A stretch of 64,000 bases of DNA from Prorocentrum cordatum (Eukaryota): the NCBI GenBank assembly GCA_963575745.1, contig CAUYUJ010000070.1, positions 124,001 through 188,000 of the forward strand, written 5' to 3'. The position numbers and the translations under genes are program-made. Below, one piece after another: positions 14,706-64,000 of this stretch (position 1 is the first letter of the stretch; each line of letters starts with the position of its first letter). A model generated the notes under the pieces. The model saw nothing but the letters and a program-made list of their open reading frames with translations. It did not search any database and was not told the DNA's origin.

Positions 14706-17229
14706 ATTTGTTTTGACATCCACGGCCAAGGGACCCGTCAGATCCGGCACAAAACACCAGGGACAGTAAAGAGCCCCGATGCCGTCCAGATCAACTGTGA
14801 CCACTTTCCTCTTCGGGTGGAGTCCTTTGCTGAGTCTGGACCATAGTTCTCTTCTGTGAGCGTTGTGGGAGGACCAGCTCTTGTCGGCAGGGCCTCCAGC
14901 AGCCTGAGAAAGGGCGGAGGGTCGCGCCTGACGAGGGTCGCCCAATCCTCGCAGCTGGCCACCAGAAGTGTAAACGAAACACAGCTGCAGAAAGCAATAC
15001 AACTGCCGTCACTGCAATCAGCAACGATGCACCAATGGCCTAAGTCTCTGAGGGACTGAGGCGAAACCTTCAACTTGAGAGTGTACCTCCCTGATGGAGG
15101 CTTTGAAACAGAACGAGAGCTCTTGAGGCACTCGCTGTATTGCCAAAATTTGCCGACCCAGCTCCAGGAGTGCCCAGGACCCATGTCCCTTGGAGGTCCC
15201 AATGGAGACGGACGCTCCCAAGACACACCATCCAGGTTGGTCTTGGGCCAGAAGTCCAGGAGGTGGGCGGCTAGCTTGGCGACAGCCTGGGAGACAGACA
15301 CCAGAAAAGACAGATTGGGCTCGAGATCTTCTTCTAGAGGCGCGTGAAGGCGAGCTCCAGCCTTCGCCGCCTCATCTACGAAATTGTTGCCACGAATTTT
15401 GACCCGCTCGTCCCAGTTCATGCTGGGATCTTCTTCGCGGTGAGCCTTCACTTTGGAAATACCCTCGAGCCGACCATTAGCATTCGCACGGCACTGCAAC
15501 ACCAGACCACCATAGGGTCTGTTATGGGAAAGCTTCTGAGCGAATGGCAGGGCGAACTGGTCGACTACGACGTTGCAGTCAGAAACAACTTCAGCCATAT
15601 GTCTTCAAGGATTCACGAGGTGACAGCTGGAGCGACAAGTTCAGCGGCCACGCTCGTCTGAGGGTAAACGTTCCAAGCCGTGTCATAGATGCGTCCGAGG
15701 ATCTGCCCACGCTCGCCAAGCCAGACAGCTCCCCATCCAGAGCGAGACAGTTCACGGACAGGGTGCCTGAACCGAGAGCCATCCAGAAAAGGTTTTCCCC
15801 CGAATCTCCTTTCGCCCCTCGGCAGCTTCCCAAAAGGCATTGCATGCCTCGCTGCGCAGCGGCGCGCGCAGCTCCCCAAAGCGCCGGACTGATCGGCGCC
15901 TTCCCGGGCGCCTGCGGATGCGCGGGGCGCCTGCTGTCCGCTCGTCAAAAGAAGCGCTCCTCGGAAGGAAGCGGGAGGCCCGCGGCCTCGAAAATTTCAG
16001 GAGACAGCTCAACCACAGCCGGATCTTGCGACTCCTGGGCAGAGTAAGGGGGGGGGGGCCTCGGAGGACGGGTGAGGGAACAAGCCCGTCTCGAGGAGAA
16101 CCTTAACCCCAGTGTTGACACCAGCCTCCTTCTCACGGCGGGCGCGGCTCAGCAACTCAGGCTTGATGTGTTCAGAACGTTCAACTTCCCAAGATGGACA
16201 ATACCACAGACGATGAATGATGGTATCGCCTTCGGCCCCACACAGGGAACAACGGTCTTCGACTTTGTAACCAAGAGCTACGGCTCGGCTCAACGGCTCG
16301 GCTCAAAAGCCAAAGTCCCTGGCATGTGATCGTCCTAATGACACATTTCTGCTTACGCCAGAAACGCTTCGAATGCAGAGCCGAACAGAGAGCATCGGAA
16401 CACAACCTGGACCGTTGGCCGTACTTATCGCCAGCCTCGCACTCACGAGCTCTGGAACTCGCAGATCTTCAAAGTCGTTTCAGGAGGGCAGGAGCGACGA
16501 GGAGGAGAGGGATGCCGATTCCACAGTCGTCAGTCAGGGCGCGCGGGCCTCCCATGGGCCATCCCAGCCTGGCCACCGAGAGGTACATGACCCCAAGTGG
16601 CTCTTTGACAGATCTCCGGGTCCGCGGAGGTTTCTTCCAGACGAGCTCCCAGCTTTCTCGAAGTTGGGCCCAGGTCATAGCGTGCTCCGTCAAACGGGTG
16701 CGCAGGAGCCACAGCTCATTCTGGTAGCGAAGAAGAGGAGCGACAGACCCATACCATGCTGGATCCCCTACAACACGCGAGAGGATGCTCACAGAGCTGC
16801 CGCCACACGACGGCTTCATGGTGGATGCCGCGAGGCGCCAAACCTGCAGCAGCTCGCCGTCAGACATGCCATGCACGTCCGCGCCAGAGTGCAGATCTGG
16901 AAGAGCTCCAGCACAAAAAAACCTGAGTGGCACGCCTACCGATGGTGCCTCGCTGTCGCGCGACTCCTCGCGCGGCGCGTGGCGGACAGCAAGCGAGCCT
17001 TAGTCTTGGTGCTGCGTCCTTGGACGCGGCGGAATGTACCAGCAGTGTGGTCGTGACCGAGATTCACCGCCGTCTCGAGGTGAGGGCCCACGAGATCTCC
17101 AGAGGCCTCGAGGAGCCTGCTCGAAAGGACCTTACTGATGGTAACCATGCCCACCTTCTCAAGGGCAATGTGTGCCTTCATCGTGCAAGAAATGGCCTGT
17201 TCGAGCTGGCTGGCAGCGCTGATTACGTC
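14706..17229 (-). mobile_element. 5'-truncated, frameshifted LINE of the same architecture (post-RT region, CCHC, RNase H) inside (GGA)n
   Basis: Collinear with ORF2 at 41290: NLGHDH; PLGVMYLSVARLGW vs PVGAVFLSLLRVGW; CSLC..HRLWYC; LDGS..SGWGAV; QTSVAAE; VSDC; KVKAH; GNNFVDEAAK. Split over several frames. Confidence 0.9.
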
Positions 17230-31335: not shown

Positions 31336-32500
31336 TGATGATTGATGATGATGATGATGATGATGATGATGCGATGATGATGATGATGATGAGATGCTGA
31401 TGATGGATGATGATGATGAGGAGGAGGAGGAGGAGGAGGAGGAGGAGGGGGGAGGAGGAGGAGGAGGTAGGAGGAGGAGGAGAGAGGAGGAGGAGGAGGA
31501 GGAGGAGGAGGAGGAAGGGAGGAGGAGGAGGAGCAGATGAGAAATGGGGGAGGAGGGGGGAGGGAGGATGAGGAGGATGAGGAGCAGGAGTTGCAGGAGG
31601 AGCAGGAAGGAGCCAGGAGGAAGAGCACGAGGAAGAGCAGGTATGAGGAAAAGGAGGAGGAGGAGGACTAGGAGCATGCGAGAGGAGGAATGGAGGAGGA
31701 GGAGGATCCGGAGGAGGAGGAGGAGGAGGAGGAGGCGAAGAGGAGGAGAGGAGGAGGAGAGGGCGGGGGTGGGAGGGGGAGGAGGAGAAGGATGATGATG
31801 AGGAGGAGGAGGAAGATGAAGAGGAGGAGGAGAAGGAGGAGGAGGATGGGGAGGATGATGATGATGTTGAGAAGGAGGAGGAGGAGGACTCGGTCTAATA
31901 GTAATACGAAACATAGTAATACTAATAGAACAATCTATGACTACGAAGAACTAGGGAGGAGTGCGGCGGAGGATAAGGTGGACGATGATGACGATGAGGA
32001 GGAGGAGAAGGAGGGAGAGGAGGAGGAGGAGGAGGAGAGCAGGAGGAGGAGGAGGAGGAGGAGGAGGAGGAGGAGGAGGAGGAGGGGAGCAGGAAACCCC
32101 GCGGAGGGGAGGATCAGGCGGGAGGAGGAGGAGGAGGAGGAGGAGAGGAGTGAGGAGGAGGAGGAGGAGGAGGAGGAGGAGGAGGAGGAGGAGGAGGAGG
32201 GAGGAGGAGGAGGAGGAGGAGGAGGAGGAGGAGGAGGAGGAGGAGGAGGAGGAGGAGGAGGAGGAGGAGGAGGAGGACGAGAGGACAACGCATATTTATC
32301 TCACTACTGCGCAGAAGCAACCGACGACTCCATTGATGCAGAAGACGAGGGGGAGGAGGATGAGGAGGAGGAGGAGGAGGAGGAGGAGAAGGGATGATGA
32401 TGAGGAGGAGAACGAAGGAGGGAGGAGGAGGGAGGAGGGGGAGGAGGGGGAGGAGGAGGGGGAGCAGGAGGAGGAGGAGGTGGAGGAGGAGGAGGAGGAG
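30500..32500. repeat. Composite (GGA)n-(GAT)n-(GGA)n tract; similar at 34751-36270 and 60100-62050
   Basis: Direct reading. Confidence 0.95.
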
Positions 32501-34750
32501 GGTCCTGAGGGTCCTGATGATGCGGGTTGGTCTTCACCCCCTGGCGCGCTGGCCGCGCCGCCCTGCCTATGCCGAGCAGCGGATGCTGGACCCGATGGCC
32601 CAGCAAAACAATCAGCAGGCTGCCCGCTACGACACCTGCCGCCAGGCAGGAGCAATGGCAGGTAGCCCGAGCCGCCGCACGAGCCACGGCTCGGCGGAAG
32701 AACCAGTTTTTCGAGCGGCGCCCAGCGGCGACAAGCCGCCCCGAGCGGAAACAGCCCAACGGCAAAAAAACGAGGCGAATCCAGCGAAGGCGACAAGACG
32801 CCCACCGGAAGGACCCGCCACCGAGGGCCTCACAACACGCCGAAGGTGGACACGACCTGGCCGAAGGCCTCGCGCAACTTGGCGGCAGTGGGGGCCCCGA
32901 ACCTCACCTCCGCGAGCTGCAGGAGAGCCTCGGTGGGAATGTCATCCTCCGACTGGTAGAGCCTGCCTAGCACCTTGAAGCCCTTAGCGCCGGTGCCGCC
33001 CGTGCCCTTGGACTTGCCAGCCGAGAGCGAAGATGCACTCCTCTAGGATGAGCTGGGTCGCGACGCGGACGAACGCCTCCGCCCAGCCCTGCACGACACA
33101 CCCCCAATGAGCCTAGACCACGGGCCCCCTCATGGTCATCGTCGGCGCCACGCTCGTCGGACGCCACCGCGGAGAGGCTTGCGATGCTCGCCGCCGCCTC
33201 CGACATCTCAATGATCTTCTTGCTGTTGCACTCCTCGATGTCGCAGCCCTGGCTTCTCTTCAAGACATCGCCGTCGCACAGCTCCCCGAAACTGCTGCTG
33301 ACCTCCACCGCGTACGTGACCTCGAACCCCTCCTTGGTGGGCTTCTCCTTGAAGCTCAGGTCGGGGAAGGGCGGTACGTCGGGCAGCTTCAAGTCTGCCA
33401 TCTTCTGTTTGTCATCATCCTGTAAGCCTCCACCCTTCTGCAAGGTGTCGAGACCCCAGAACTCACTCTCAAAAATCGCCAAACCGTCGCAACGCTTTGC
33501 GCCGTGGTACTTGTCATAGAAGTCGCTCCGAATGCTGGGCGCGTCGGCCTCGTCGCCAGCGTCCTCGACCTCCTCATCGGTGATGTCGCCTAAGCCCATG
33601 GCAACACGCCTCCAGCCAGCGAACGCCTTGTCCATTCCAATGAGGCAGTGCTGGGTGACTTCAGCAGCCGTCAGCGCGCAACTGTCCTGACCCATGGCCT
33701 CCTCTTTGGCATCGCCACGGGCTCCATCACCTCCTGCACCGAGACCACCTGGAGGTCCGCGGCGCGCTGGTCCTGGAGCCTCTTGACCTCGGGTGGAGGA
33801 GGGGAGCTGCACTCCCAGCACATCGCCCTGAACCCGAAATTCACAAATGTGCACATCTCGCACCTCCACTTCGAGACTCGGGCAATGGGCACGCCTCTCT
33901 TGGCCGCCTGGGAACGGTCCACCAGCGACGTCGACGGCGACCTGCGAGTGTGCTTGCCATTGCCCTCGTTCTTGGACTTCTTGTCCTTCTTGGATGTCTG
34001 TTCCTTCTTCTTGGCGCGGGAGCGCGAGCTCGCTCTTGAACTCGAAGACTCCCGAGCCCTTTTGCGTCTGTGCTTCTCCCGCTTCTTGTCCTTGTTCTTG
34101 TCCTTCTTCGCTGCGATGGCCTCCACCGCCTCCTCGAAGCCGAACGGGTCCTTCTCCTTCGTCGGCGCCTGCGCGTGCCCCAGGGAGAGGATCTCCGCGT
34201 TGAGTTCCGCCTCCTGCTGGCTGCGCATCTGCAACTCCGCGGTCGGCGGCGAGGCAGGCGGCCTCGCCCCCCGCCAGTCCGCTGGCGGCAGCGCCGTGCC
34301 CCACCAGCCCGGCGGAGCCTCCTCGATCACCTGCGTGAGCCCGTAATGGAAGATCTTGCTCTTCTCCTTCTCCTTCGGGGGCCTCGTCGCAGAAGCTCCA
34401 GCCGTCGTCCACGATCCTCCTGGAGACCGATACCTTCTGGGAGGCGTGGATGGCGCCACTGCGCCCTGTGCCGCAGCCCTTGCCGCCATGAACCTTAACG
34501 TCCAAGACAATCGCGTCGATGGCGAAGCCGAGGCCCTCGACGAAGCCCTTGGTGCGCTGCCCGAGCTCCACGCCGATGGTCTTCTGCGTCGCACGGACCT
34601 CGAGCTTCATGCTGAGGCCTCCATGGCGGCTCGGGCCCGCTGCCCCCCGTTTCCAGATGCGCGGGCCCACCCCCCCTGGCCCCAGAGGGGGAAAGGGGCT
34701 TGAGCCAACATGGCTTGAGCCAAAATGGCTTGAGCCAAAATGGCTACGGA
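32500..34750 (-). mobile_element. SL-headed retroposed element or processed retrogene (about 2.25 kb) in a (GGA)n tract
   Basis: Full SL at 34750-34729 plus two 15-nt relics (34728-34714, 34713-34699); intronless coding region; 3' tail (TCAGGACCC)2; GGA tracts on both sides. Confidence 0.85.
32830..34610 (-). pseudogene. Frameshifted ORF (about 590 aa) with a K/R/S-rich tract and RanBP2-type zinc finger WRCEMCTFVNFGFRAMCWEC
   Basis: ATG at 34610; coding-like sequence switches frame several times (first near 34375 and 33680) and ends at TGA 32830. Exact W-x-C-x2-C-x3-N-x6-C-x2-C motif. Confidence 0.7.
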
Positions 34751-38769: not shown

Positions 38770-39878
<1,109 letters not shown>

Positions 39879-39900
39879 TCCGTAGCCATTTTGGCTCAAG
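39879..39900 (+). other. DinoSL spliced-leader sequence, 22/22 match, followed by a degenerate second copy (TCCGTAGCGTTTCGCTCAGG, 39901-39920)
   Basis: TCCGTAGCCATTTTGGCTCAAG read directly. Confidence 0.97.
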
Positions 39901-40059
39901 TCCGTAGCGTTTCGCTCAGGACAGAGTCTCTTGGCGTGGGGGAGCGACGGCCCCCGACAGCTCAGGTCGCCCCCCGCGGCGGCACATTTCCCTTCACTGT
40001 ACTGCGGTATCAGCCCGCACTGCTTTGCGTACCTACACCACGGCGGGCACGCCCCGCGG

Positions 40060-41243
40060 ATGTCTCCCGATGGTGCACGAGGGCCTTTGGTCTCGAATCG
40101 CGGTCAGCAGCGGCGAGCCTGGGCCCAGCCGTGGAACTGCAAGTCGTGCTGGAACAATCAGGGAGAGAGCTGGTGGAACCGAGCCGATCGACTTCATTGC
40201 AGCAAGTGCAACCTGCATAAGTCAGTCTGCTACGGTGGCCCTCGTACCTTGCCCACAGTCCCTGCAGTGCACGCGCAGCAGCGTGCAGCTTCGGGCAGCA
40301 GCGGCAAGGTCGAGCAGCAGCTCAAGCAATGCCAGGCAGAGTTGGAGAAACTTCGTGCGCAGCTCGCTCGAGGGCCCCCGCCATCACCTCCAGACCCACG
40401 GGATGCAATGGAGGTGGACGAGGGGGGGGCCGACGGCGATCTCAAGCAGCAGCTGGCGGAGCTCAACTCGCAGATCGACGCTATCAAGGACGTTCAATGT
40501 AAGGAGGTGCAGCAGGCTTGCCAGCAGATGCGCGAGCGTCAGGCGCGCTTGCGGCAGCGTGTCTCTGCGGCCAAGCCTCTGGACACACGCCTCAAAGAGC
40601 TCTCTTTCACGCATCAGCGGCTTTGTAAGAAAGCAGCGAAGCAGGAAGAGAACATTCGAGAGTTGGAGGAAAGGTCAGGCTCGCCCAGGAAGCGGTGGAG
40701 CGGGCCAACAAGGAGCTCAGCGCCACCAAGAGTGAGATGGTCGAGATCGAGCAGCAGAGGCGCGAGCTGGTCGTTGCCTGCCCTCAGCCACCGCAGCCTG
40801 AGCGAGGGCAGGCGCAGTCGCTGCAGCAGGTCATCGGCGGGCTCCACGACGTCTCCGTGGACCAGCTGGGTGAGATGCTGCAGGGGTTCGGAGGGTCCGC
40901 GCAGTCGGCGCAGAAGCTGTACGACGCGGTCCAGGAGGTGCGGGAGGCGGAGCGCGTGTACCGCGAGAAGAGGGAGCAGGAGGCCGCAGCTGCGCGAGCA
41001 GCGGCCGAGGAGGCTGAGGCGGAGCGCCCTTCGCCTGCGGCAGCGAGCGCGCCTGCGCCCGCAGCCAGCCCAGCCGCCAGCTGGATCCCAGACCCCTCGG
41101 CGGCCGATGCTGACACGCTGCGTGAGTTCCTGGGGACCTGCAATGTTCAAGTACCCGAGGACGAAGATGATCTTCGGGAAGCGGCCAAGCGGGCAGGAGA
41201 GCAGATTGACAGCTTTGCCAAGAAAGCCAGAACGAGGACGTAG
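40060..41243 (+). CDS. LINE ORF1 (about 394 aa): RanBP2-like zinc finger plus coiled coil; 1-nt frameshift at the A-run 40670-72
   Basis: ATG at 40060; WNCKSC...WWN...HCSKC; E/Q/K/R-rich heptads continue seamlessly (ELEE-KVRLAQEAVERANKEL) into the 40695-41243 frame if one A is added. Confidence 0.8.
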
Positions 41244-41289
41244 GCTTGTCATTCCCTCGGTGCTCAGGCTGTTTCTCTTTCTTTGTGCG

Positions 41290-44200
41290 ATGGTTAGAGT
41301 GGTTACCGCTAACACGACGAGCCACGGGCCAATGGTCCGCATGCTGGAGTCCGACATCACGTCGCTGGCATTTGACAAGGAGTTGACGGTGTTCTGTATT
41401 CAGGAGCACCATCTCAGTGACAAGCTGGCCGACCACCAATCGAGGTTGGGGGCAGCAGGGTACCACGGGGTCTGGGCCAAGGCGTTGGACACAGACAACG
41501 GTGGTACGACAGGTGGGGTGGCGGTGCTTTGTCCTAAGCGAGTTCAGATCACGGCGCCGCCACGGTGTGACGACGGGCTGCTGGTCCCAGGTAGAGCAGT
41601 GGCAGGCCATGTTCACAGTGCCGTCCGAGGCGGCTTTGTTGTGGTGTCCGTCTATTTGCACGTTGAAGACCAGATGGGGGAGAAGAATGTCGCGATCCTG
41701 GTGGATGTGGCAGCCTATCTTTTCCGTCTCAACGAGATGGGGATCGAGTGGGTTGTTGGGGGTGACTTTCAGATGGAGCCTGACAAGTTGATGTCGTGGG
41801 CCGCCGCATTCGGGGGCGTGGTGTCCGCGACAGCGGATCCAACTTGTGTGCAGGCAGTGCCAGGCTCCACGATTGATTTCTTCGTGATAAGTGCGAACTT
41901 AGCGATCAGAACCACCCCAGCCGTTGTGCTTGAGGATGTGTGTCTCGCTCCCCACAAACCGGTTTCGGTCGGCATTCGAGGGGCTGATGTCAAGCTGTGG
42001 TGCAGAGTCGCGCGCCAGCCCAAGAGGATGCCAGTGGTTGCCAAGACAGGATGCGCGCGGTTCCCCAGGAGATGGGCGCGTTTTCGACAGCAGGTAGCCC
42101 AAGCCCGAGATGAAGAGGACCTCAGTGTCAGATGGGATGAGTTTCTTACGAAAGTTGAGCGTGAGCTGCTGGACCGACATGATATTGTAGGGCCACAACG
42201 CTCTTTCTACGAGGGTTACGCTGGCAAGCACGAGGTGATCTGGAAGGAGCTCAGTTTCGTGCCGAAGAAGCGTGCGGTCCAGCTGCAGCCTGTGCAGGCT
42301 GCGTGGGCCACGGCGGCCAGGTGGGCCCGCCACCTGCGATCGGTCAGCCAGGCCCTGCACACGTTCGCGCCGAGGCTAGAGGTGGATGACGGCGACCAGG
42401 CAAGGCGTTTCCGACGTATAGCCAAGGTGCTGGTGGATGCCGACAGGTTCTGCGACCGTATCGCCAAGGTGGAGTGGGTGCACAAGGAGCTGGACCACCA
42501 CAGTAGTGCCCTTTTTAAGGCTGGGCTGTCGGCCCTAGCCGACCCTTTCTTTCAGGATTTATGTGACCGCATCCTGGAGCGAGCGTCGCTCCAGGAGTCG
42601 GCCCACCTCGCCAGCAAGTCAGAGGACTGGCAACGATGGGTGCGAGAAAGTTTCTCAGGAGGAGCCCGCCAGGCCCACAGGTACGCTAGAGCTCGTGCTG
42701 TCCAGGAGGTCATTGGAGCCACCCAGAGAGCCCAGCCCTTTGAGCTTTCGGATGAGGTGGTTTCGGACTGGGGGCTTATTTGGGCCACTCACGGGTGCAC
42801 CAGACCTGAGATCCCTGGGGACGCCGAGTCTTGGGAAGAGCTCCCTGAACTTTCGGTGGCTGACTTGAGAGCTGTCATTTTGAAGTTCCCTGTGACCACG
42901 GCCGTGGGGTGTTGTAAAATACATCCTCGCTCGCTTCAGTACCTTTCAGACCAGGCCCTTGAGGCCTTTGCATCTCTGCTGCATCAATGCGAGCGTCGTC
43001 TCTGCTGGCCAAAAGACAGAATTGTGAGCAGGCTCTTCCGGCTTGCCAAGCCAGACGGGGGGCATCGTTTAATTGCGCTCCTAGACTCTTTCATCAGAGT
43101 GTGGGCGCGAGCCCGCAGGCCTATCAGCGAGGCCTGGGAGCGTGCCAATAGGACGGAGGAGTTTTGGGGTAGCGGGAAGGGGAGGAGTGCGAGCGATTCT
43201 GCCTTCGATTTGAACCTTTCCGCCGAAGTTGCCAAAGCAAAGGGCCTGCACTGGATCAGCGTGCTCCTAGACATGGCCAAGTGCTATGAAATGATCAAGC
43301 TTTCGGCTCTCTTTGACGTGTATCGGAGGGTGGGATTCCCCCTTCGATTAGGTTGGATGCTGATTCAAAGCTATGTGGCACCCCGTAGGATTGACGCATA
43401 CGGGAGTTTGAGCGAGAGTTACGTTTCTTTTCAAGGCATTTTGGCAGGCTGTGCGCACGCCTGTGCCAACATGCTTGCAGTGCTGCTGGACCCTGTCAAA
43501 AAGATTGTCGCTAGGTATCCGTCTATTAAGCCGAGGGCCCTCATGGATGATATATCCCTTCAATGGTGTGGTGAGACCGCCAAAGGAGGAGAGTTAGTCT
43601 TTGCTGCTACGCGGGAGCTGTGCCACCTCCTAGCCCCGATTGGTCTCCTTCTTCAGCCAAACAAGTCTGGGTTCCTCGCGAGCACGACAGCGGCAGAAAA
43701 AGAGGTTCGTTTGTCGGCTCGCATGATAGGGTTTCACAGCAAGGCGCATCTTCGCAACTTGGGCCATGATTTGTACGGTAGGCGTGTAATTCGCAAAGTG
43801 GAAAAAGCCAGAGTCGCCAAGCTCCAGGGGCGTAGGGCCAAACTTCGGGTCCTGAAAAAAGCCGCGGGGCCTAAGGTGGCCATGCTCTGGCGGACTGGGC
43901 TCATGCCCTGTGGGGCCCACGGTGCGGCGGTCTCTGGGGTCTCGGATCAGGTTCTCAGAAGCCTGCGTGCAGTGGCGGCCGAGCTTGCAGGAGCTAGAGG
44001 CCGCATGCACGTCACGGCGTTTCTCAGTACGCACCGTGACGAGAACTATGACCCACTAGTCGATGCCACTGTGCCTCTTGTTTTTCGTTACTGCTGTTGG
44101 GTCTGGGACCGTCGTGCTAGTGATGTAGATCTTTGGCATGCGTGGAATGCGGCGGCCTCACGGCTAGCCAACAGACCGCTCTGGAGGGACGTTCGAGGGC

Positions 44201-45912
44201 CCGTGGGAGCCGTCTTTTTGAGCCTTTTGCGTGTGGGATGGGCCCTAGTGGGACCGACCCATATTCGGACCGACCAGGGAGATGTTTTGTCGCTTTGCCA
44301 CGTTTCGCCTTGGGATTTAAAACGCCAGCTCATTGAGGGTATCAATAGGGCACAGATGATTCAGCTGGTGTCGGCCATCCCCGAAGCTTCTGGCGAGGAG
44401 ATTGTTTGGGGTCGTGCGCTGCGGGTCGCGGTCAACTCCGTGAGGGAACCTAAGAGGCGCGCGACCTTGAAGGCCTTGCTAGCAGGGGGGCTCTGGCCGC
44501 CAGCTCGGAAGTTTAGTCATGGTCTAGCTGATTCGAACCTCTGTCAGTTTTGCAAGCAGCAGATAGGCACGTTCGGCCATCACTGGTATGAATGTGAAGA
44601 GCTCTGGCGCCAGGGTGACGCCCCAGAGGCAGGGCCCGCATTGCCAGAGGAAAGTTTCAAGCGACGGCAGCTGCTCAAGGACTCGGCGCGAGGAATCCCC
44701 CCCGACTTTGATTCGGTTGAGTTGGTTTACGGTTTGCCGTTTCAGCCTGTGTTTTTGGAGCCGGTCCCGAGCGTGCTGCCTGTTTTTTCCTGGGGGGCCA
44801 CCCACCTTCCTTGGGGAAAACGTGTTTACACCGACGGCTCGGGCCACGCCAACGGAGTCCCCGAGATGGCCCGCTGCGGCTGGGCCGTGGTCGAGATGTC
44901 GGCCCGAGGTTGGCCGATCAGGGCCCTGTATGGAGGCCTCGCGGGACGGTGCCAGACGGTGCCACGAGCCGAACGGCAAGCCCTCTTGGAAGCTTTGAAG
45001 GTGGTCCCCCCTGGAGCTGAGCTGGTCTCGGACCACCGCTCGGCAGTGATCGAGGGCAACAGCTGGGATCCAGCCCTGGCGACGGGAGCGTTCAAGCACG
45101 CGTCAATCTGGAGGAAAATTTTTAAAATCGTAGGATCGAAGGAACGACCTTCCTTCCGTTGGACCCCCGCCCATGGAGATCTGGACGAGATTTTGGAGGG
45201 CGAGTGGTCGTTTGCTGAGGCTGGTGTTTCGCGTGAGTCCGATCTCCTTGGGAACGGGTGGGCAGACTTTTTCGCGAAGATGGGTGCGGCTCAGATCCGA
45301 GCGGCCGAGAGTGCAGTCGAAGCAGTCAGAGTCGGCCTCAGCGAGGCCAAGCTGAATCTTGATTTTATTTCGCGGGCGGCCCAATTCGTGGCCGCGTCTT
45401 CGGTCCCCGAACCGAGGCCGCCTGCCAGGCCGAGAAACTCCACGGCCCCTCCTTTGGCCCTGATGGCCCACGACCTCGAAACGATTCCGTCGGGAGGTGT
45501 GCGGTGCACATGGTGCCACAGTATCGCGAAGTCGGCAGGAGGCCGAGCCAGGCTTGAGCAGCCTAGCGCGGTCTGCAGGCCGACTGACCTGCACTTGTTT
45601 TTAGCTGCTGTCCGTCACCACCGCCTCGGGGGCGTCCTCCCTAGGGCGCGAGGCGAGGCGGTGCGTCGAGCGTGGCAGGCCCTCGGCTTCGAGGGAGAGC
45701 AGGGTGAAGCTGTCGCCCCGCCGTCGGTCTTCCACTTCTTGCAGCACCAGGTTGCGGCTGTTGGCCGCTACCTGATCTGTCAACGTTGTGGGGCCCACGC
45801 GCTGATTGAGGCGCCGAGCTGGCGCGCCCTGCTCAAGACCTGTGCGGGACGCATGTCCAAGGACCAGCGGTGGTTCCTGGACCGTGTCTGTGCTGGGCGC
45901 GAGCCCCGATAG
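41290..45912 (+). CDS. LINE ORF2 (1540 aa): APE endonuclease, reverse transcriptase, CCHC knuckle, RNase H, C-terminal Cys motifs
   Basis: Endonuclease: VVTAN, CIQEH, GGVAVL, SVY, GGDFQ, TIDF, PHKPV. RT: GHRLIAL, LDMAKCYE, QGILAG, LMDD, NLG. Knuckle: CQFC..GHHWYEC. RNase H: YTDGS, RAE, VSD, WTPAH, GNGWAD. No internal stops. Confidence 0.95.
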   Translation: MVRVVTANTTSHGPMVRMLESDITSLAFDKELTVFCIQEHHLSDKLADHQSRLGAAGYHGVWAKALDTDNGGTTGGVAVLCPKRVQITAPPRCDDGLLVPGRAVAGHVHSAVRGGFVVVSVYLHVEDQMGEKNVAILVDVAAYLFRLNEMGIEWVVGGDFQMEPDKLMSWAAAFGGVVSATADPTCVQAVPGSTIDFFVISANLAIRTTPAVVLEDVCLAPHKPVSVGIRGADVKLWCRVARQPKRMPVVAKTGCARFPRRWARFRQQVAQARDEEDLSVRWDEFLTKVERELLDRHDIVGPQRSFYEGYAGKHEVIWKELSFVPKKRAVQLQPVQAAWATAARWARHLRSVSQALHTFAPRLEVDDGDQARRFRRIAKVLVDADRFCDRIAKVEWVHKELDHHSSALFKAGLSALADPFFQDLCDRILERASLQESAHLASKSEDWQRWVRESFSGGARQAHRYARARAVQEVIGATQRAQPFELSDEVVSDWGLIWATHGCTRPEIPGDAESWEELPELSVADLRAVILKFPVTTAVGCCKIHPRSLQYLSDQALEAFASLLHQCERRLCWPKDRIVSRLFRLAKPDGGHRLIALLDSFIRVWARARRPISEAWERANRTEEFWGSGKGRSASDSAFDLNLSAEVAKAKGLHWISVLLDMAKCYEMIKLSALFDVYRRVGFPLRLGWMLIQSYVAPRRIDAYGSLSESYVSFQGILAGCAHACANMLAVLLDPVKKIVARYPSIKPRALMDDISLQWCGETAKGGELVFAATRELCHLLAPIGLLLQPNKSGFLASTTAAEKEVRLSARMIGFHSKAHLRNLGHDLYGRRVIRKVEKARVAKLQGRRAKLRVLKKAAGPKVAMLWRTGLMPCGAHGAAVSGVSDQVLRSLRAVAAELAGARGRMHVTAFLSTHRDENYDPLVDATVPLVFRYCCWVWDRRASDVDLWHAWNAAASRLANRPLWRDVRGPVGAVFLSLLRVGWALVGPTHIRTDQGDVLSLCHVSPWDLKRQLIEGINRAQMIQLVSAIPEASGEEIVWGRALRVAVNSVREPKRRATLKALLAGGLWPPARKFSHGLADSNLCQFCKQQIGTFGHHWYECEELWRQGDAPEAGPALPEESFKRRQLLKDSARGIPPDFDSVELVYGLPFQPVFLEPVPSVLPVFSWGATHLPWGKRVYTDGSGHANGVPEMARCGWAVVEMSARGWPIRALYGGLAGRCQTVPRAERQALLEALKVVPPGAELVSDHRSAVIEGNSWDPALATGAFKHASIWRKIFKIVGSKERPSFRWTPAHGDLDEILEGEWSFAEAGVSRESDLLGNGWADFFAKMGAAQIRAAESAVEAVRVGLSEAKLNLDFISRAAQFVAASSVPEPRPPARPRNSTAPPLALMAHDLETIPSGGVRCTWCHSIAKSAGGRARLEQPSAVCRPTDLHLFLAAVRHHRLGGVLPRARGEAVRRAWQALGFEGEQGEAVAPPSVFHFLQHQVAAVGRYLICQRCGAHALIEAPSWRALLKTCAGRMSKDQRWFLDRVCAGREPR

Positions 45913-46474
45913 GGGCGAGCAAGGGTGGGCTGACCCTGGTGGTTAGCCCACCGCTTGCTTGCCCCTATCTGGGGCTCGTGGGTTTGTCTACCCAGCGGGG
46001 GGCGCGGTGCGAGTGGGGACTGCCCGGCGGTGCGCCGTTAGTGACCCTCGCACAGTTGCTCCCCGGCCCCGCGCACGGCGCGGAGGGTTCTACTCTGCCT
46101 CTGGCTGGATGGTACAAAGAGCCCCTATCTGGGGCTCGTTTCTTCCTTGCGGGCGGTGCTGCACTGAGCACCCGCCTTTTCCTTTCTGTTGAGAGGCTTG
46201 CCTCTCGGTGCTCGCGGCCAGCGCCCGAACGGACGAGCGCTCGCATCGGCGTGGAACGTGGAAGTATCAGTAGTAGTTGTAGTCGTAGTAGTCGTAGTAC
46301 TCGTACTAATAGTGACGCAGCAGTAGTAGTAGTGGTCGTAGTAGTTGTAGACGTAGCAATTCTTAGTCGTCGTAGCAGTCGTAGCAGTAGTAGTAGTAGT
46401 AGTAGTAGTGGTCTTCGTCGTCGCCGTCGTAGTAGTAATAGTAGTAGTAGTAGGCGTAGTAGTAGTAGTAGTAC

Positions 46475-51159: not shown

Positions 51160-52791
51160 TCCGTAGCCATTTTGGTTCAAGCCATGCTCGGGCGCGCGCC
51201 GCGTCGGGCGCTTGGGCAGAATGGTGCGGGAGGTGCTCGCCGGTGTCGCGGCGGCCCGCTGGGCGGCGGACAACCTGGCGAGACGGCTTGACGGGGAGCT
51301 GCGGGAGGCGAAGGAAGTCATCGCCAGCCTCCAGGCGCAGCTGGAGCGCGGTTCGCGCGGCGACGCCGCGGAGGCGGAGGCCCGCCGCCGCGATGCCATC
51401 GCGCGGCCCGCCTTGGGAGCGCGCGTCCGCGTACGCCGCGAAACCAGGGCGCAGCGGCAGCGGCGAAACGTCGCGCGGCATGCCGAGCGCTGCCCGTCGG
51501 CAGACGCCCCGCCGCAGGCATGGCGCAGGGCTCAACGCGGGCCGCGCCTCCCAGGAGGGCCCCTTCCTGGTGATGGGCGCGGCGGTGCGGCGCAGAGTGC
51601 CATCGTGTGTGAGGTAGAGACCTGCGTCTGCGAAGTGCAGCCGCCGATTGAGTGCGCATTGGATGCTTGCGTGGCCGAGGCGCCAGCGCAGCTGCCCAGC
51701 GCCCGAGTGGCGGCCGCGAGGGCCCCGCTGCGGTCTAGCGCCCAGCCGTGCCTCCCCGAGTGGGCGCGCTGGGCCGCGCTGCTGGAGGAGCTCGGCGTGG
51801 CGCAGCTTGCCGAGCAGGGCTGCGGCGAGGGCGGTGCCGAGAGCACCGAGGCGGAGGAGATCATCGCGGAGTTCGGCTGCGATGCCGAGGACGATCGCGC
51901 TGCCGCGGCGCGTTGCTCGGCGTGGCGGCCGCGGCGGAACGGGGGCAGCCTAGCGGGGGGCTCGGAGTTCGAGGGGGGCTCTGAGTTCGAGGATCTCGGG
52001 TCCGAGCACGGGCAGTTCCTGCGCGGCGGGTTCTCGGGCGGCAGCGAGCTGGCCGCGGAGTGCGAGCTGGCGCGCGCTGCCTGGCTGGAACGCTCGGGCC
52101 CCAGGCGCGGTGGTGACGGAGGCTCGAAGCACCGCGCGAAGGAGACGCCGCGGCCGCCGTCCGTGGCCGTCGTGGAGGCGCCCGTGGGAGGCGCGGCCAT
52201 CGAGCGCGCCGTCGGCGTGGAGCCGCCCCTGGTCGCGGACAGCGTCGACTGCGCCGCGGGCGATGGCCGCTCGAGCTCGGAGGGCCTGTTCGTTTCGTTC
52301 CTGGGCGGCTTCTCGGTGGCGGCGGTGGCGCGTGCGGCCAAGGGGCCGAAGTCGGGAGTCGGGTCACTCCTGGACTTAGCTGAGGCCCGCGCCCTCGGCA
52401 CCCGCCTCGGAAGTGCAGGTTGCCCAGATGCCGAGGATCACGAGGACGGCTTCGCGGGGGACTCGGAGTTCGAGGATCTCGGGTCTGAGAGCGGGCAGTT
52501 CCTGCGCGACGAGTTCTCGGACGGCAGCGAGCAGGCCGCGGAGCACGAGCTTGCGCGCGCTGCCTGGCTGGAGCGCACGGGCTCCAGGCGCGAGGGCGCT
52601 GAAAGCAGCCTCGAGGCCGACGCCCCTGGCGCGCGTGCGCAGGAGCGGCTGGCTGCGGCCGAGGCGGCCCAGGCGGCAATCCTGAGCGGCGATCTGGCCG
52701 AGGGGCTGCGGTTGCTCGAGGCGGCTCAGGTCTTCGGCCAGGCTGAGTGAGGCGTGCAGTTGCATTCTGCATGTAGATATGGTCTCGCCTC

Positions 52792-61025: not shown

Positions 61026-62768
61026 AGGTTGTTCCTGATGATGGTGGTGGTGGTGATCATGCTGATGACGGTGATGAGGATGTTAACGAGACTGACTATG
61101 TTGATGTTGTTGATGCTGATGCTGATGCTACTGATGCTGACGACCGTGATGATGATGCTGAATGTGTTGATGCTGATGATGCTGATGATTCTGCTGATGA
61201 TGATGAATACGGTGATGAAGATGCTGACTATGATGATGATGCTGATGATGATGATGCTGGTGATGATGATGATGATGATGACGATGCTTATCATGATGTT
61301 GATGCTGATGATGATGAACATGATGATGGTGCTGCTGATGATGATGATGATGAGCTTTAGTATGATGATGATGATTGTGATGCTGATTATGCTGATGATG
61401 CTGATGCTGATGATGATGCTGACACTGAGGATGCTGATGATGATGATGATGACGGTGAGGAGGAGGATAAGGAGGAGGAGGAGGAGGAGGAGGAGGAGAG
61501 GAGGATGAGGCGGAGGAAAGGATGAGGAGGATGATGAGGACGAGGAGGGAGAAGAGGTGGAGGAGGAGGGTGAAGAGGAGTAGGAGGAGGAGCGAGGAGG
61601 GATGCTGGTGCTGATGATTATGAAGAAGAATAATATGATGATGCTGCTGCTGATGATGATGAGGATGTGGATGAGGACGAGGATGACGATGAGATGAGGA
61701 GGAGGAGGAGGAGGAGGAGGAGGAGGAGGAGGAGGGGGAGAAGGAGGAGGAGGAAGCGGAGAATGAGGAGGAACGAGAAGGAGGAGGAGGAGGAGGAGGT
61801 TGAGGAGGAGGAGAAAGAGGAAGAATCATCGGATCGAGTATCGAGGTGGAAGAGGACGAGGAGGGATGAGGGCAGTGGATGAGGAGGAGGAGGAACACCT
61901 TTCATTGAGGAGGAGGAGGACGACGACGAGGATCGAGCACCGACGCGGAAGAGGCTGGGAGGGCGGCGGGCGGAAGAGGACGAGGATGAGGAGAGGAGGA
62001 GGCGGAGGAGGAGGAGGAGGACGAGGAGGAGGACAAGGACGAGGGGGGGACAAGGAGGAGAAGGACATGGCGCCAGTTAAACAGTGTTTTGGCAATTTCG
62101 TTGACCATGTTTGTCTGATTTCGTTCTGCAGCAAGGTTGGGAACGGGCCAGAACGAGGGACATCGAAAAGAAAACGGCAGCGGAAAGCACTTTTGAGTTC
62201 GAGCCCGGGAGGAGGAGGAGGAGGAGGAGGAGGATCGAGCATTTGTGCCTCTCTTCTTGTCCTCCTTGGTTGCGCAGGTCTCCTGTGGAGCCCCCTCAGC
62301 CTCCCCGGCTGGGGCCTCCCCATCTGGGAGTCGTGACTGGGGGGGGTTCTCCTCCACCTTCCTCCAAGGTGTGAGCGGGCCCGCGCGGTGGCGGCCCGCG
62401 GTGTTGTGTGGGGCGCTTCAGGCACTAACTGGCGTTCCCACGGAGCGAAGCGAAGCGAAGTGATGGGGGCCGGAGGAAGGAGCTCTTGCCTTGCCTGCTG
62501 GAGGCCGGCATGCCTGGCCGCGCCGCCTCCGGGACTTCGCCCTGGCCGCTCTTGCGCCTCCAGCCGCGGATGGATGGGGGGGTCCCTCTCTTTTTGTTTC
62601 CCCTCTGTCTCTCTCTCACTCTCCACCTTGTTCTTCTCAAAGGGGAGGAGGGGGAGGAGGAGGAGGCGGAGGAGGAGGAGGATTTCGATTGCAATGAAGA
62701 GGAGGATGAGCAGGAGCAGCTTGCTCGCACACGACCACCTCGTTCATCACCCTCACCATCACTATATG

Positions 62769-64000
62769 GTAGCCATTTTGGCTCGCGCCATATTGGCGCT
62801 TGAGACCTGGGGGCAGCTGCCCTTGCGTTTCTTTGCTCTGCTTGCTCCACCCTTTTTCCGACCTGCTCGGGTTCCGATTAGCTCGGGGGCGCGATGGTTC
62901 GCAAAGGCATGGATGCGTTGACATCCGAGCTGGCGGCTCAGGTGGCCAAGGTGACGACTCCTTCTCTTCGGTGCTGGCTCAGGTCTCTGCGTTGTCTCTC
63001 GCGCCAAGGCTTTCCAAATTGGGTTGGGCGAGCAAAATGCGATCATTGCTAAGACTGGGAAATCGCTGGCCTCCTTCCGATCGCATTCGAACAGCAAGGG
63101 CGCGATCGCAGCGAAGCCGGCCGCGGCAAGTCTGCGAAGAACGCCCCTGCCGTTATTCGTTCTCGTCTCAGTTCTCCCGACTTGTTGTCGAAAACCGTTT
63201 TTGTCGATTTGGAATGCGAAGTGCAACCGTAATGTTTTGTTCGAAGTGTGCGTTGCAGCGTTCTCCTCGCGCGTCACTGGGCAAGTGAAGTCGGCGATGG
63301 AGGCCCCCCCCAGGGACTTCTCGACCTCCAGAAGCAGCTTCCGACGCGATACGTTGCCGTCGCGTCTTCGAGCACGCCGCCCCCGAGGGCCCTCGCGCGT
63401 TGCGTTTCAAGCCCTTCACAAGGGTGGGGCGAACAACCACGCGGCCATGATGGGTAGGATCCGCAGCGAACTCGACGCGACAGTCAAGGCTGACCCGTCC
63501 CATTCGGAGCGGTGCATCGATCCGTCAGTCGGCGGCGGCTCCAGCTTCGCATCTTCCACGTTGCTAGGCCTAGCTCGGTTTGGGAAGCGCCTCGCGTTTT
63601 CCCGTTCCCTTTCCACGCGTTGGATGTCTGGCTGGAGGCGAGCGGCAGGGAGTTGCGGGCTAGGTCATGGGCCTGTTGAGTCTCTGACGGCCAGGCGAAT
63701 TCGCAGTTTGCTAACGCAGGGGATAGGTGGCTCACGCAGGAAACTGTCTCTCTTCGGCGCCCAGGCCGATTGCGAGAGGCACAACTTAGTCTAAGGGGGC
63801 GCGGATTACCGCTCCCCCCGCGTAGTCCCGAAGAAACAGCTATCTGTCGTAACTTGGAACGCTCTAGGCTTTAGGCCTCTCTACGAGTGATCGTGTTGGA
63901 ATTGTACGAAACCGCGAACATGCGCGTTGAAGCTGCACGGTGCTATTTTCAGGCGCAGCTGTGTGGTCAGCGTCCAAGAGTCGCATTGGCGTCCTGGGGC
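62769..64000 (+). mobile_element. Degenerate SL-headed LINE 5' end; APE endonuclease begins at about 63837 and runs off the window
   Basis: GTAGCCATTTTGGCTCgcG plus relic CCATATTGGC at 62769-62804. LSVVTWNA and VVSVQESHW lie in one frame with a TGA between them. Confidence 0.65.

What the first reader, a model, noticed from the sequence alone, without database searches (positions are those of the whole stretch)
39863..46278. Complete LINE whose first nucleotide is the spliced leader: a trans-spliced, possibly promoter-less retrotransposon
Seen: the 16-bp TSD (AGTATCAGTAGTAGTT, with a diagnostic ATC break in the TAG repeat) abuts base 1 of a perfect DinoSL, and ORF2 is intact. The copied RNA was therefore a mature SL-trans-spliced message, reverse-transcribed to its very 5' end. 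Established: SL relics mark dinoflagellate retrogenes, and CRE/SLACS and NeSL elements insert into SL RNA genes, which is a different arrangement. Inference: this autonomous LINE may regenerate its 5' end by trans-splicing out of read-through host RNA (it lies sense within the rhodopsin intron) and could be the enzyme source for cDNA recycling.
Basis: partly seen in the sequence, partly recalled or inferred. Interest (0 to 1): 0.85.

Follow-up and report, generated by a model that had tools for sequence, protein, structure and literature searches.

The report
Dinoflagellate LINE starting with spliced leader
A young jumping gene (LINE) in a dinoflagellate genome begins exactly with the host's 22-base spliced leader, so it was copied from a trans-spliced messenger RNA, which suggests how such elements keep their front end and points to a candidate enzyme for this group's habit of recycling mRNAs into genes.

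Summary
Observation confirmed. A 6,384-bp insertion (39879-46262) sits between two copies of a 16-mer found nowhere else in the window. Its first 22 bases are a perfect DinoSL. It encodes an APE-RT-Zn-RNase H ORF2 of a large dinoflagellate LINE family.

Corrections:
- The single 1,950-aa ORF comes from one missing base in an A-run. Short-read contigs and an independent protein record show a separate 394-aa ORF1.
- No rhodopsin domain was found in any of 408 ORFs scanned, so the "rhodopsin intron" is unsupported.

New here: a degenerate but full-length second leader (SL', 39901-39920) follows the perfect leader directly. Ordinary relics in this window lack their first 7 bases. The lineage therefore took up a leader at least twice, the later time exactly at the older leader's 5' edge. 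That fits the terminal AG of a DNA-encoded leader acting as trans-splice acceptor, which would renew the 5' end each cycle.

Not shown: a promoter-less life cycle, generality across copies, and a role as the enzyme for retrogene formation. Only this one full copy was accessible. Contig fragments hint at other leader-led copies. Four literature searches found no paper describing a LINE that starts with DinoSL. Trypanosome LINEs do the opposite: their transcripts are unspliced.

The parts
38770..39862 (.). Upstream part of the (GTA)n/(GTC)n microsatellite block, with a short inverted (CTA)n stretch at about 39510-39750, into which the element inserted
   Evidence: Read directly. Rfam gives only sub-threshold miRNA-like hits on the palindromic repeat.
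39863..39878 (+). 5' copy of the 16-bp target-site duplication AGTATCAGTAGTAGTT
   Evidence: 2 matches in the window at up to 1 mismatch, 0.00 expected.
39879..39900 (+). Perfect 22-nt dinoflagellate spliced leader (DinoSL), the first bases of the inserted unit
39901..39920 (+). SL': a degenerate but full-length second leader (TCCGTAGCGTTTCGCTCAGG) that keeps the 5' TCCGTAG which ordinary relics lack
   Evidence: The 8-mer TCCGTAGC occurs 4 times in the window on both strands: three true leaders and this site. Local alignment to the leader gives 16 identities over 18 aligned bases plus one 2-nt gap. Only leader sites reach this score among 127,950 windows.
39921..40059 (+). Remainder of the 5' UTR
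   Evidence: No ATG lies in the ORF1 frame before 40060.
40060..41243 (+). ORF1, canonical length 394 aa: a C-x2-C...C-x2-C zinc-finger-like motif, a coiled coil and an acidic tail. It is frame-broken in the window by one missing base at 40669-40672; stop TAG at 41241-41243.
   Evidence: table 4 shows the extra base in all contig depth at that place. P0162 matches frame 0 at 46 of 47 residues and then the second frame at 90 of 95. P0161 is an ORF1 homologue at 39% identity. No Pfam family passes threshold.
41290..45912 (+). ORF2, 1,540 aa from the first ATG after the ORF1 stop; in-frame ATGs also lie at 41107, 41143 and 41167. Domain order: APE endonuclease, reverse transcriptase, Cys/His knuckle, RNase H, Cys-rich C-terminus.
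   Evidence: A family profile hits LINE-1 ORF2p at 3.5e-12, exonuclease III at 1.3e-9, R2 at 2.6e-8 and RNase H at 9e-4.
41386..41928 (+). APE-type (Exo_endo_phos) endonuclease domain
   Evidence: The window's own hit is below threshold (E 0.0024, 18.1 bits against a cut-off of 24.5). 10 of 20 aligned family members hit PF03372. The motifs QEHH and GGDFQ are present.
43045..43680 (+). Reverse transcriptase domain, with the active-site stretch LMDDIS
   Evidence: RVT_1 at 28.7 to 29.4 bits against a cut-off of 29.6. 11 of 20 family members hit PF00078.
44542..44595 (+). C-x2-C...H-x4-C zinc knuckle after the RT
   Evidence: Nearly invariant C1069, C1072, H1081 and C1086 in alignment A1. zf-RVT hits in 2 of 20 members.
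44824..45174 (+). RNase H domain
   Evidence: The window's own hit is below threshold (E 0.0032, 18.1 bits against 25.8). 5 of 20 members hit PF00075.
45913..46262 (+). Structured 3' UTR without poly(A). A long hairpin starts at 45900. The module 45977-46085 is present at much higher depth than the body.
   Evidence: Fold -196.6 kcal/mol against a shuffle mean of -167.1, z = -5.07. Depth 1243 against 30-60 in X1, with loose ends at 45977 and 46085.
46263..46278 (+). 3' copy of the 16-bp target-site duplication

Best explanation
This is a recently inserted, essentially intact APE-type LINE. It has ORF1 plus an ORF2 with APE endonuclease, RT, zinc knuckle and RNase H, and a structured 3' UTR without poly(A). 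It entered a (GTA)n microsatellite by target-primed reverse transcription and made a 16-bp duplication. Its template was a LINE mRNA that already carried the host's trans-spliced leader, and the RT copied that RNA to its first base, so the DNA copy begins with the leader (shown by the anatomy). The lineage has done this more than once. Behind the perfect leader lies an older, decayed leader that is still full length, which means the later trans-splicing took place exactly at the older leader's 5' edge. My proposed mechanism is inferred, not shown. The AG that ends a DNA-encoded leader serves as the trans-splice acceptor when the copy is transcribed, most simply by read-through from neighbouring transcription. 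Each cycle then swaps the encoded leader for a fresh capped one and restores the same 5' end without a promoter inside the element.
For: The duplication encloses leader plus element. LINE identity: the closest relative, P0002, is 40% identical and carries RVT_1 plus Exo_endo_phos. An exhaustive search found 5,012 relatives at E<=1e-3 and 380 at E<=1e-30. The family profile hits LINE-1 ORF2p, exonuclease III, R2 and RNase H. Pfam hits in 20 members: RVT_1 11, Exo_endo_phos 10, RNase_H 5. The window's ORF2 segment keeps the consensus residue in 92 of 109 columns that are at least 80% conserved, and 12 of the 17 misses lie beyond the segment aligned. Youth: perfect duplication and leader, and an open ORF2. 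SL' is a real leader derivative and is full length. The ordinary relics in the same window are 5'-truncated: two at 34690-34734 on the minus strand and one at about 62786. Hints of other leader-led copies come from contigs. All-depth in X1 falls from 451 at 39918 to 82 at 39925-39928, 42 at 39970 and 26 at 40018, and the body stays at about 30. Contigs in X2, X3 and X6 match through the leader and part or all of SL' and then diverge. One X3 contig starts to match at base 39879 behind a different (GGA)n flank. One X1 contig joins the leader to position 40105. Replacement at the terminal AG would leave no trace in ordinary retrogenes, so existing relic data do not argue against it (inference).
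Against: Only one full copy could be examined. No second full-length copy, no RNA evidence and no pre-mRNA evidence were obtained. The contig hints are short, come partly from metagenomes, and could include unrelated leader-bearing sequences. A perfect leader fits a single recent capture as well as renewal in every cycle. The immediate 5' flank ends in GTT, not AG, and the choice of acceptor cannot be predicted. Orientation relative to host genes is unknown, and the nearest leader-tagged retrocopy upstream (34750) is on the opposite strand. ORF1 is frame-broken in the window sequence.
Confidence: 0.65

Rival explanations
1. One-off capture. The LINE normally makes its RNA from its own internal promoter, with a 5' end at or near SL'. 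This copy came from a rare read-through transcript that happened to be trans-spliced just upstream, so the leader is not a property of the family.
For: Only one copy lies in the window, and no further full copy was found in the collections. A perfect leader is expected after any single recent capture.
Against: SL' is itself a former leader, so capture happened at least twice, and the second time exactly at the older leader's edge. Depth over SL' is about 15 times that of the body, and several contigs share leader plus SL' before diverging.
Confidence: 0.2
2. The DNA-encoded leader acts as a core promoter through its TTTT/TTTG motif, as proposed for retrogenes. The element would then be transcribed from its own 5' end rather than rescued by trans-splicing from read-through RNA.
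For: The proposal is made for DinoSL-led retrogenes in PMC5585692 and repeated in PMC9651163 (passages read). It would explain expression wherever the copy lands.
Against: There is no experimental support in the passages read. Transcripts that started inside the leader would lose its first bases in the next copy unless they were trans-spliced again. The perfect first base and the full-length SL' fit splicing better.
Confidence: 0.12
3. Template switching. The RT reached the 5' end of an uncapped LINE RNA and jumped onto a leader RNA or free leader exon, making a chimeric copy like the U6/L1 chimeras (that analogy is recalled, not taken from a call).
For: LINE RTs are known to switch templates (recalled). 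The junction is precise.
Against: A jump lands on the 3' end of the second RNA, so a leader-RNA template would bring its intron part between the leader and the LINE. The leader gene sequence quoted in PMC12584245 continues with GTACACATTGGG after the splice site, and here the leader is followed by SL'. The event would have to happen twice at the same place.
Confidence: 0.04
4. The element inserted beside a pre-existing leader sequence, by site-specific targeting like CRE/SLACS/NeSL, or the junction is an assembly chimera.
For: Leader-gene-targeting LINEs exist (PMC4640811, passages read). No contig bridging flank, leader and body was listed.
Against: The 16-bp duplication encloses the leader, and both flanks are one microsatellite, not a leader gene array. 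The enzyme is an APE type, not the restriction-like endonuclease of CRE/NeSL. A chimera would not create a matching duplication with a diagnostic ATC break.
Confidence: 0.03

Closest known systems
DinoSL-tagged retrogenes ('mRNA recycling' in dinoflagellates; Slamovits and Keeling 2008 as cited in PMC6050394 and PMC7245778)
   Same: A DNA copy of a trans-spliced RNA that begins with the leader. Older leaders are kept behind newer ones as a record of repeated cycles.
   Different: Here the copied RNA encodes the endonuclease and RT itself. The older leader is full length, not 5'-truncated. A clean 16-bp duplication abuts base 1 of the leader.
Dinoflagellate LINEs: SymbioLINE elements (PMC5890265) and LINE remnants in Suessiales (PMC8045281)
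   Same: ORF1 plus an ORF2 with Exo_endo_phos and RVT_1, found in dinoflagellate genomes. Some subfamilies are reported as active.
   Different: ORF1 here has no DNMT. The passages read mention no leader at the 5' end. PMC8045281 describes LINEs of Symbiodiniaceae and Polarella as old and diverged, whereas this copy looks young. The closest protein found is only about 40% identical.
L1Tc / ingi / RIME of trypanosomatids (PMC1874656, PMC8190864)
   Same: LINEs in a host with polycistronic transcription and leader trans-splicing of mRNAs. They face the same problem of keeping a full-length 5' end.
   Different: Those elements carry an internal promoter (Pr77), and their transcripts lack the leader. 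The authors argue that staying unspliced preserves full length. This element shows the opposite: the leader is part of the copied RNA.
CRE / SLACS / CZAR and NeSL-1 (PMC4640811)
   Same: Non-LTR elements physically linked to spliced-leader sequence.
   Different: Those insert into leader genes with a restriction-like endonuclease. This element has an APE endonuclease, lies in a microsatellite, and carries the leader inside its duplication.
Human LINE-1 (best solved relative: ORF2p, entry 8uw3)
   Same: APE plus RT in ORF2, a coiled-coil ORF1, target-primed insertion with a duplication of 10 to 20 bp. It is the enzyme source for processed pseudogenes.
   Different: L1 has an internal 5' UTR promoter and a poly(A) tail (recalled). 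This element has RNase H, a structured 3' UTR, no poly(A) and a leader at its 5' end.
Dinoflagellate +ssRNA virus with a 5' DinoSL (Levin et al. 2017 as cited in PMC10235124 and PMC9651163)
   Same: A selfish genetic element whose RNA carries the host leader at its 5' end.
   Different: That is an RNA virus, interpreted as mimicry or erroneous splicing. This is a genomic retrotransposon with a DNA record of the leader.

Membership tests
APE-type non-LTR retrotransposon (LINE) | Reverse transcriptase domain of the non-LTR type | tested here: met
   RVT_1 at 28.7-29.4 bits, just under the 29.6 cut-off. The family profile hits LINE-1 ORF2p at 3.5e-12 and R2 at 2.6e-8. 11 of 20 aligned members hit PF00078.
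APE-type non-LTR retrotransposon (LINE) | N-terminal apurinic/apyrimidinic-like endonuclease | tested here: met
   The window's own Pfam hit is below threshold (E 0.0024). The family profile hits exonuclease III at 1.3e-9 and the L1 endonuclease. 10 of 20 members hit PF03372.
APE-type non-LTR retrotransposon (LINE) | Target-site duplication and no terminal repeats | tested here: met
   A 16-bp duplication. Self-comparison finds no internal or terminal repeat of the element.
APE-type non-LTR retrotransposon (LINE) | Assignment to a named clade (L1, I, Tad, CR1 and others) by RT phylogeny | not tested
   No clade reference sequences were available. L1 ORF2p is the best solved match, and zf-RVT is seen in 2 of 20 members. 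These are leads only.
DinoSL-tagged retrocopy | DNA-encoded DinoSL at the 5' end of the copied unit | tested here: met
   22 of 22 bases, directly after the duplication.
DinoSL-tagged retrocopy | Older relic leaders truncated at the internal AG (starting CCATTTTGG...) | tested here: not met
   SL' keeps TCCGTAGC. The truncated form is seen at the other sites of the window.
Leader-gene-targeting elements (CRE/SLACS/NeSL) | Insertion inside a leader RNA gene or array | tested here: not met
   Both flanks are (GTA)n microsatellite, and the leader lies inside the duplication.
Leader-gene-targeting elements (CRE/SLACS/NeSL) | Restriction-like endonuclease C-terminal to the RT | tested here: not met
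   The domains found are APE at the N-terminus and RNase H after the RT. No restriction-like endonuclease was hit.
Trypanosomatid-style LINE with internal promoter (L1Tc/ingi) | Transcripts start at base 1 of the element and lack the leader | tested here: not met
   The DNA copy begins with the leader, so the template RNA carried it. Transcripts themselves were not seen.

The most novel reading that the evidence does not exclude
A family of autonomous LINEs has no promoter of its own. Each copy is transcribed as part of host read-through RNA. The host trans-splicing machinery uses the AG that ends the copy's DNA-encoded leader, cuts the element out at exactly its first own base, and gives it a fresh capped leader. 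The 5' end is thus rebuilt perfectly in every generation. The same enzyme, which demonstrably copies leader-capped RNA to its first base, would be the long-sought reverse transcriptase behind dinoflagellate mRNA recycling.
Probability: 0.3. Interest if true: 0.85.

Novelty: new variant of a known kind. Interest (0 to 1): 0.62.

Why it matters
LINEs everywhere must solve the problem that a copy made from RNA loses any upstream promoter. The known answers are internal promoters (L1, L1Tc Pr77) or insertion into transcribed multicopy genes (R2, SLACS). A LINE whose RNA is defined by trans-splicing, with a leader that brings the cap and can be replaced at its own terminal AG, would be a third answer. 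It would suit a host where nearly all mRNAs are trans-spliced.

It also bears on a question open since the discovery of relic leaders: which enzyme makes the very numerous dinoflagellate retrogenes. The reviews read here say this is unknown and lean towards LTR elements (PMC6050394, PMC5585692). This element shows one young APE-type LINE that copies a leader-capped RNA to its first base and integrates it with a clean duplication. That makes the question directly testable by comparing duplication lengths, target sites and 3' ends of young retrogenes with those of this LINE.

It also qualifies the view that LINEs in this group are only ancient remnants (PMC8045281).

Tried and rejected
- **Whole genome:** not held, so the planned census of copies could not be made.
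- **RNA evidence:** no RNA holder was listed among the sequencing runs. All four runs laid were contigs.
- **Empty-site alleles:** many joints across 39867-39878 to 46263-46282 (tables 5 and 5c) lie in the microsatellite. I could not tell them from paralogous repeats, so I did not use them.
- **Relatives with DNA:**
  - JGI metagenomes: 179 pattern matches and 1 relative, L001 (2,061 nt), without a 5' end.
  - IMG/VR: 17 pattern matches, 0 relatives.
  - GTDB genomes: 88 pattern matches, 0 relatives. The leader-SL' junction 22-mer gave 0 matches there.
  - The record behind L001 is not held.
- **IMG/VR leader sites:** loci holding a DNA-encoded DinoSL number 119. None of them has a LINE of this family within 8 kb. 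Of 136 distinct leader sites, 0 are followed by TCCGTAG. These are mostly AT-rich giant-virus bins, so they do not test the idea.
- **Leader-derived peptides:** 0 of 160 proteins fetched by then contain one. A search with the frame that reads through the leader scored 48 candidates and found none.
- **Cluster names:** The taxon range therefore rests on two Prorocentrum cordatum names.
- **Earlier notes of this scan:** nothing.
- **Duplications around the two other leader-led retrocopies:** none of 10 bp or more for the 51160 copy; ambiguous in (CCT)n for the 34750 copy. No link between retrogenes and this LINE could be drawn.
- **The 51221-52747 ORF:** unrelated to the LINE protein.
- **Rfam on 39700-46400:** only sub-threshold miRNA-like hits on the palindromic repeat.
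- **Translating long stretches for Pfam:** I scanned ORF pieces instead.
- **Literature:** searches, plus passages in 15 papers, gave no statement that a LINE begins with DinoSL. Supplements were not opened. The retrogene tables of PMC5585692, where RT genes with an upstream leader may be listed, could bear on priority.
Full report
**What is there**

The window is dinoflagellate DNA of 59.5% G+C. It holds several DNA-encoded spliced leaders.

At 39863-39878 and 46263-46278 lies the same 16-mer, AGTATCAGTAGTAGTT. Even with one mismatch allowed it occurs only these 2 times in 64 kb, against 0.00 expected. Both flanks belong to one long (GTA)n/(GTC)n microsatellite block running from about 38770 to about 47900. 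The ATC break is what makes the repeat informative.

Directly after the left copy comes a perfect 22-nt DinoSL (39879-39900). The right copy is preceded by ...CGTGGAACGTGGA, with no poly(A). The 6,384 bp in between occur once in the window.

**The element**

The long frame gives RVT_1 just under Pfam's cut-off (28.7 bits against 29.6).

Relatives are many but distant.
- The word-indexed search scored 8,000 candidates and found 8 proteins. The best, P0002, is 40% identical over 99% of the query and carries RVT_1 and Exo_endo_phos. Two hits are named Prorocentrum cordatum.
- The exhaustive search found 5,012 proteins at E<=1e-3, 1,837 at E<=1e-10 and 380 at E<=1e-30. None of the long hits exceeds 41% identity; only short fragments of 167-244 aa reach 47-63%.

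A profile of 20 members hits the following solved proteins:

| Solved protein | E-value |
|---|---|
| Human LINE-1 ORF2p | 3.5e-12 |
| Exonuclease III | 1.3e-9 |
| R2 | 2.6e-8 |
| RNase H | about 1e-3 |

Of the 20 members, 11 hit RVT_1, 10 hit Exo_endo_phos, 5 hit RNase_H and 2 hit zf-RVT. The window's own APE and RNase H hits are below threshold (E 0.0024 and 0.0032).

The aligned ORF2 segment keeps the consensus residue in 92 of 109 columns that are at least 80% conserved. Twelve of the 17 misses lie beyond the segment I aligned.

The 3' UTR is strongly structured: -196.6 kcal/mol, z = -5.07, and 0 of 100 shuffles fold as well.

This is an APE-type LINE with RNase H and a structured tail without poly(A). 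I could not assign it to a named clade.

**A correction to "one intact ORF"**

Between about 40670 and 41240 the long frame reads as Arg/Ser-rich filler. Another frame reads as a plausible coiled-coil and acidic protein that ends at a TAG at 41241-41243.

At the A-run 40670-40672, every contig depth in X1 carries one extra base (26.6 + 8.5 of 35.1). So does the depth in X2 (2.4 of 2.4) (table 4).

An independent protein record, P0162, matches the first frame at 46 of 47 residues. It then continues in the second frame at 90 of 95 residues. P0162 is labelled Pyramimonas sp. by EukProt.

The canonical element therefore has a 394-aa ORF1 (40060-41243) and a separate ORF2. The first ATG after the ORF1 stop is at 41290. 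The window is one base short there. A homopolymer error in the assembly is the simplest reading, but a real frameshift in this copy is not excluded.

ORF1 has a Cys4 zinc-finger-like motif and a coiled coil. It has a 39%-identical homologue, P0161, and no Pfam family.

**How the leader got there**

The duplication encloses leader plus element, so the leader was part of the inserted cDNA. The template was a trans-spliced LINE mRNA copied to its first base.
- Insertion next to a pre-existing leader, in the CRE/SLACS/NeSL manner, is excluded by the duplication, the microsatellite flanks and the APE-type enzyme.
- Template switching onto a leader RNA would bring intron sequence. The leader gene quoted in PMC12584245 continues GTACACATTGGG, and here the leader is followed by something else.

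**The new observation**

What follows the leader is TCCGTAGCGTTTCGCTCAGG (39901-39920), a decayed leader that is still full length.
- The 8-mer TCCGTAGC occurs only 4 times on both strands of the window: three true leaders and this site.
- The alignment to the leader gives 16 identities over 18 aligned bases plus one 2-nt gap.
- Among 127,950 windows, only leader sites score as high.

Ordinary relic leaders in the same window are truncated in the usual way and start at CCAT... There are two behind the leader at 34750 on the minus strand and one at about 62786. That is the expected result of splicing at the leader's internal AG.

A full-length relic means that the later trans-splicing took place exactly at the older leader's first base. 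Once a copy has the arrangement leader-SL', the AG that ends the DNA-encoded leader sits exactly there. If it serves as acceptor, every cycle replaces the encoded leader by a fresh one and restores the same 5' end. This would explain why the first leader is perfect while SL' has 6 differences.

Replacement at the terminal AG leaves no trace in ordinary retrogenes, so published relic counts do not speak against it (inference). This step is proposed, not shown.

**Is it more than one copy?**

I could not make the census, because no genome is held. The collections gave only one short relative without a 5' end.

Contigs of four runs give hints.
- The body is covered at word depth of about 30-60 in X1, mostly by contigs with 0-6 differences. 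A few contigs differ by 8-10%, and several sites split about half and half. There are thus at least two close variants and some diverged ones.
- All-depth in X1 is 451 at 39918, 82 at 39925-39928, 42 at 39970 and 26 at 40018.
- Contigs in X2 (2), X3 (1) and X6 (3) match through the leader and part or all of SL' and then diverge.
- One X3 contig begins to match at 39879 behind a (GGA)n flank.
- One X1 contig joins the leader to 40105.

These results fit several diverged elements that share a leader-SL' front end. They are short, partly from metagenomes, and may include unrelated leader-bearing sequences. I give them little weight.

**What is not supported**

No rhodopsin family was hit by any of three sets of ORFs outside the element that passed a low-complexity filter:
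- 145 ORFs of 100 aa or more over the whole window;
- 128 ORFs of 40-99 aa between 24 and 62 kb;
- 135 ORFs of 40-99 aa elsewhere.

Host gene orientation around the element is therefore unknown. Of the three other leader-led retrocopies, two lie downstream on the same strand (51160 and about 62769) and one upstream on the opposite strand (34750).

The role as enzyme for mRNA recycling is open.
- For it: the element copies capped RNA to the end and makes a clean duplication. The retrocopy at 34750 also sits in a microsatellite and shows no poly(A).
- Against it: a structured 3' UTR without poly(A) is typical of LINEs that recognise their own tail (recalled). No duplication could be defined for the neighbouring retrocopies.

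**Comparison with what is known**

- The reviews read say the enzyme behind dinoflagellate retroposition is unknown and lean towards Ty1/copia (PMC6050394; PMC5585692).
- PMC5585692 reports that the GO term "RNA-dependent DNA replication" is enriched among DinoSL-tagged retrogenes. RT genes with an upstream leader were therefore seen in bulk, but were read as activated host functions.
- PMC5890265 describes SymbioLINE elements without mentioning a leader.
- PMC8045281 calls LINEs of Symbiodiniaceae and Polarella old remnants.
- In trypanosomatids, the other large group with leader trans-splicing, L1Tc, ingi and RIME transcripts lack the leader. The authors argue that this preserves full length (PMC1874656).

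I read passages of these papers, not whole texts, and opened no supplements. Searches found no statement that a LINE begins with DinoSL.

**Verdict**

The core reading is well supported: a trans-spliced LINE mRNA was copied to its first base. It is strengthened by the full-length older leader. The promoter-less, self-renewing cycle is a coherent and testable proposal that rests on one copy plus weak contig hints. The rhodopsin context is not supported.

I rate it a new variant of known kinds (LINE and leader-tagged retrocopy), with interest 0.62.

Noticed in passing
IMG/VR loci L002-L120: 136 distinct DNA-encoded full DinoSL sites lie in 119 loci. Of the 80 loci that one search lists by name, 67 are giant-virus MAG bins. 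Median locus G+C is 0.20. At 129 of 136 sites the leader core is preceded by A. The 29 bases upstream are 90% A+T at the median, with recurring motifs. An ATG follows within 100 nt at 123 of 136 sites. This looks like giant viruses of dinoflagellates that encode the host leader at the start of many genes. The listing of one search shows no title on this.
   Followed up: partly
L068 (5,319 nt, IMG/VR): The contig begins with the DinoSL core and is GC-richer than the giant-virus loci. It resembles the leader-led +ssRNA dinoflagellate virus discussed in PMC10235124. Seen only in the script output.
   Followed up: no
window 32495-34750, minus strand: A retrocopy with a full leader plus two truncated relics (34690-34750) and a 547-aa ORF (32967-34610) without a Pfam family. 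It is embedded in a (CCT)n microsatellite with no visible poly(A).
   Followed up: partly
window 51160-52750, plus strand: A leader with one mismatch, followed by a 509-aa ORF with no Pfam family and no likeness to the LINE protein. No duplication of 10 bp or more was found.
   Followed up: partly
window 62766-62800, plus strand: A fourth, degenerate leader plus a truncated relic, missed by the 3-mismatch search and found by alignment score.
   Followed up: no
window 45977-46085 (inside the LINE 3' UTR): A module of about 110 nt is present at about 20-40 times the depth of the LINE body in X1, X2 and X3, and at high depth in X6. Shared loose ends lie at 45977 in all four runs and at 46085 in X1 and X2. 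It is part of another abundant repeat, or of a non-autonomous partner. It occurs once in the window.
   Followed up: partly
P0162 (EukProt label Pyramimonas sp.): A 143-aa record labelled as a green alga is 95-98% identical to this dinoflagellate LINE's ORF1. The label may reflect cross-contamination. If that data set is a transcriptome (recalled, not checked), it hints that ORF1 is expressed.
   Followed up: partly
window 16520-16909, minus strand: A weak tblastn match (28% over 136 aa, E 1.5e-4) to the region after the RT of the LINE protein. It may be an old LINE fragment.
   Followed up: no
window 39510-39860: The microsatellite switches from (CTA)n to (TAG)n and forms a long palindrome. 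This draws sub-threshold miRNA-like Rfam hits, 56 bits against a gathering score of 110 at best.
   Followed up: no
window 40350: All contigs in all four runs read G where the window has A (table 3). Together with the missing base at 40669-40672, this suggests small errors in the assembly or a strain difference.
   Followed up: no
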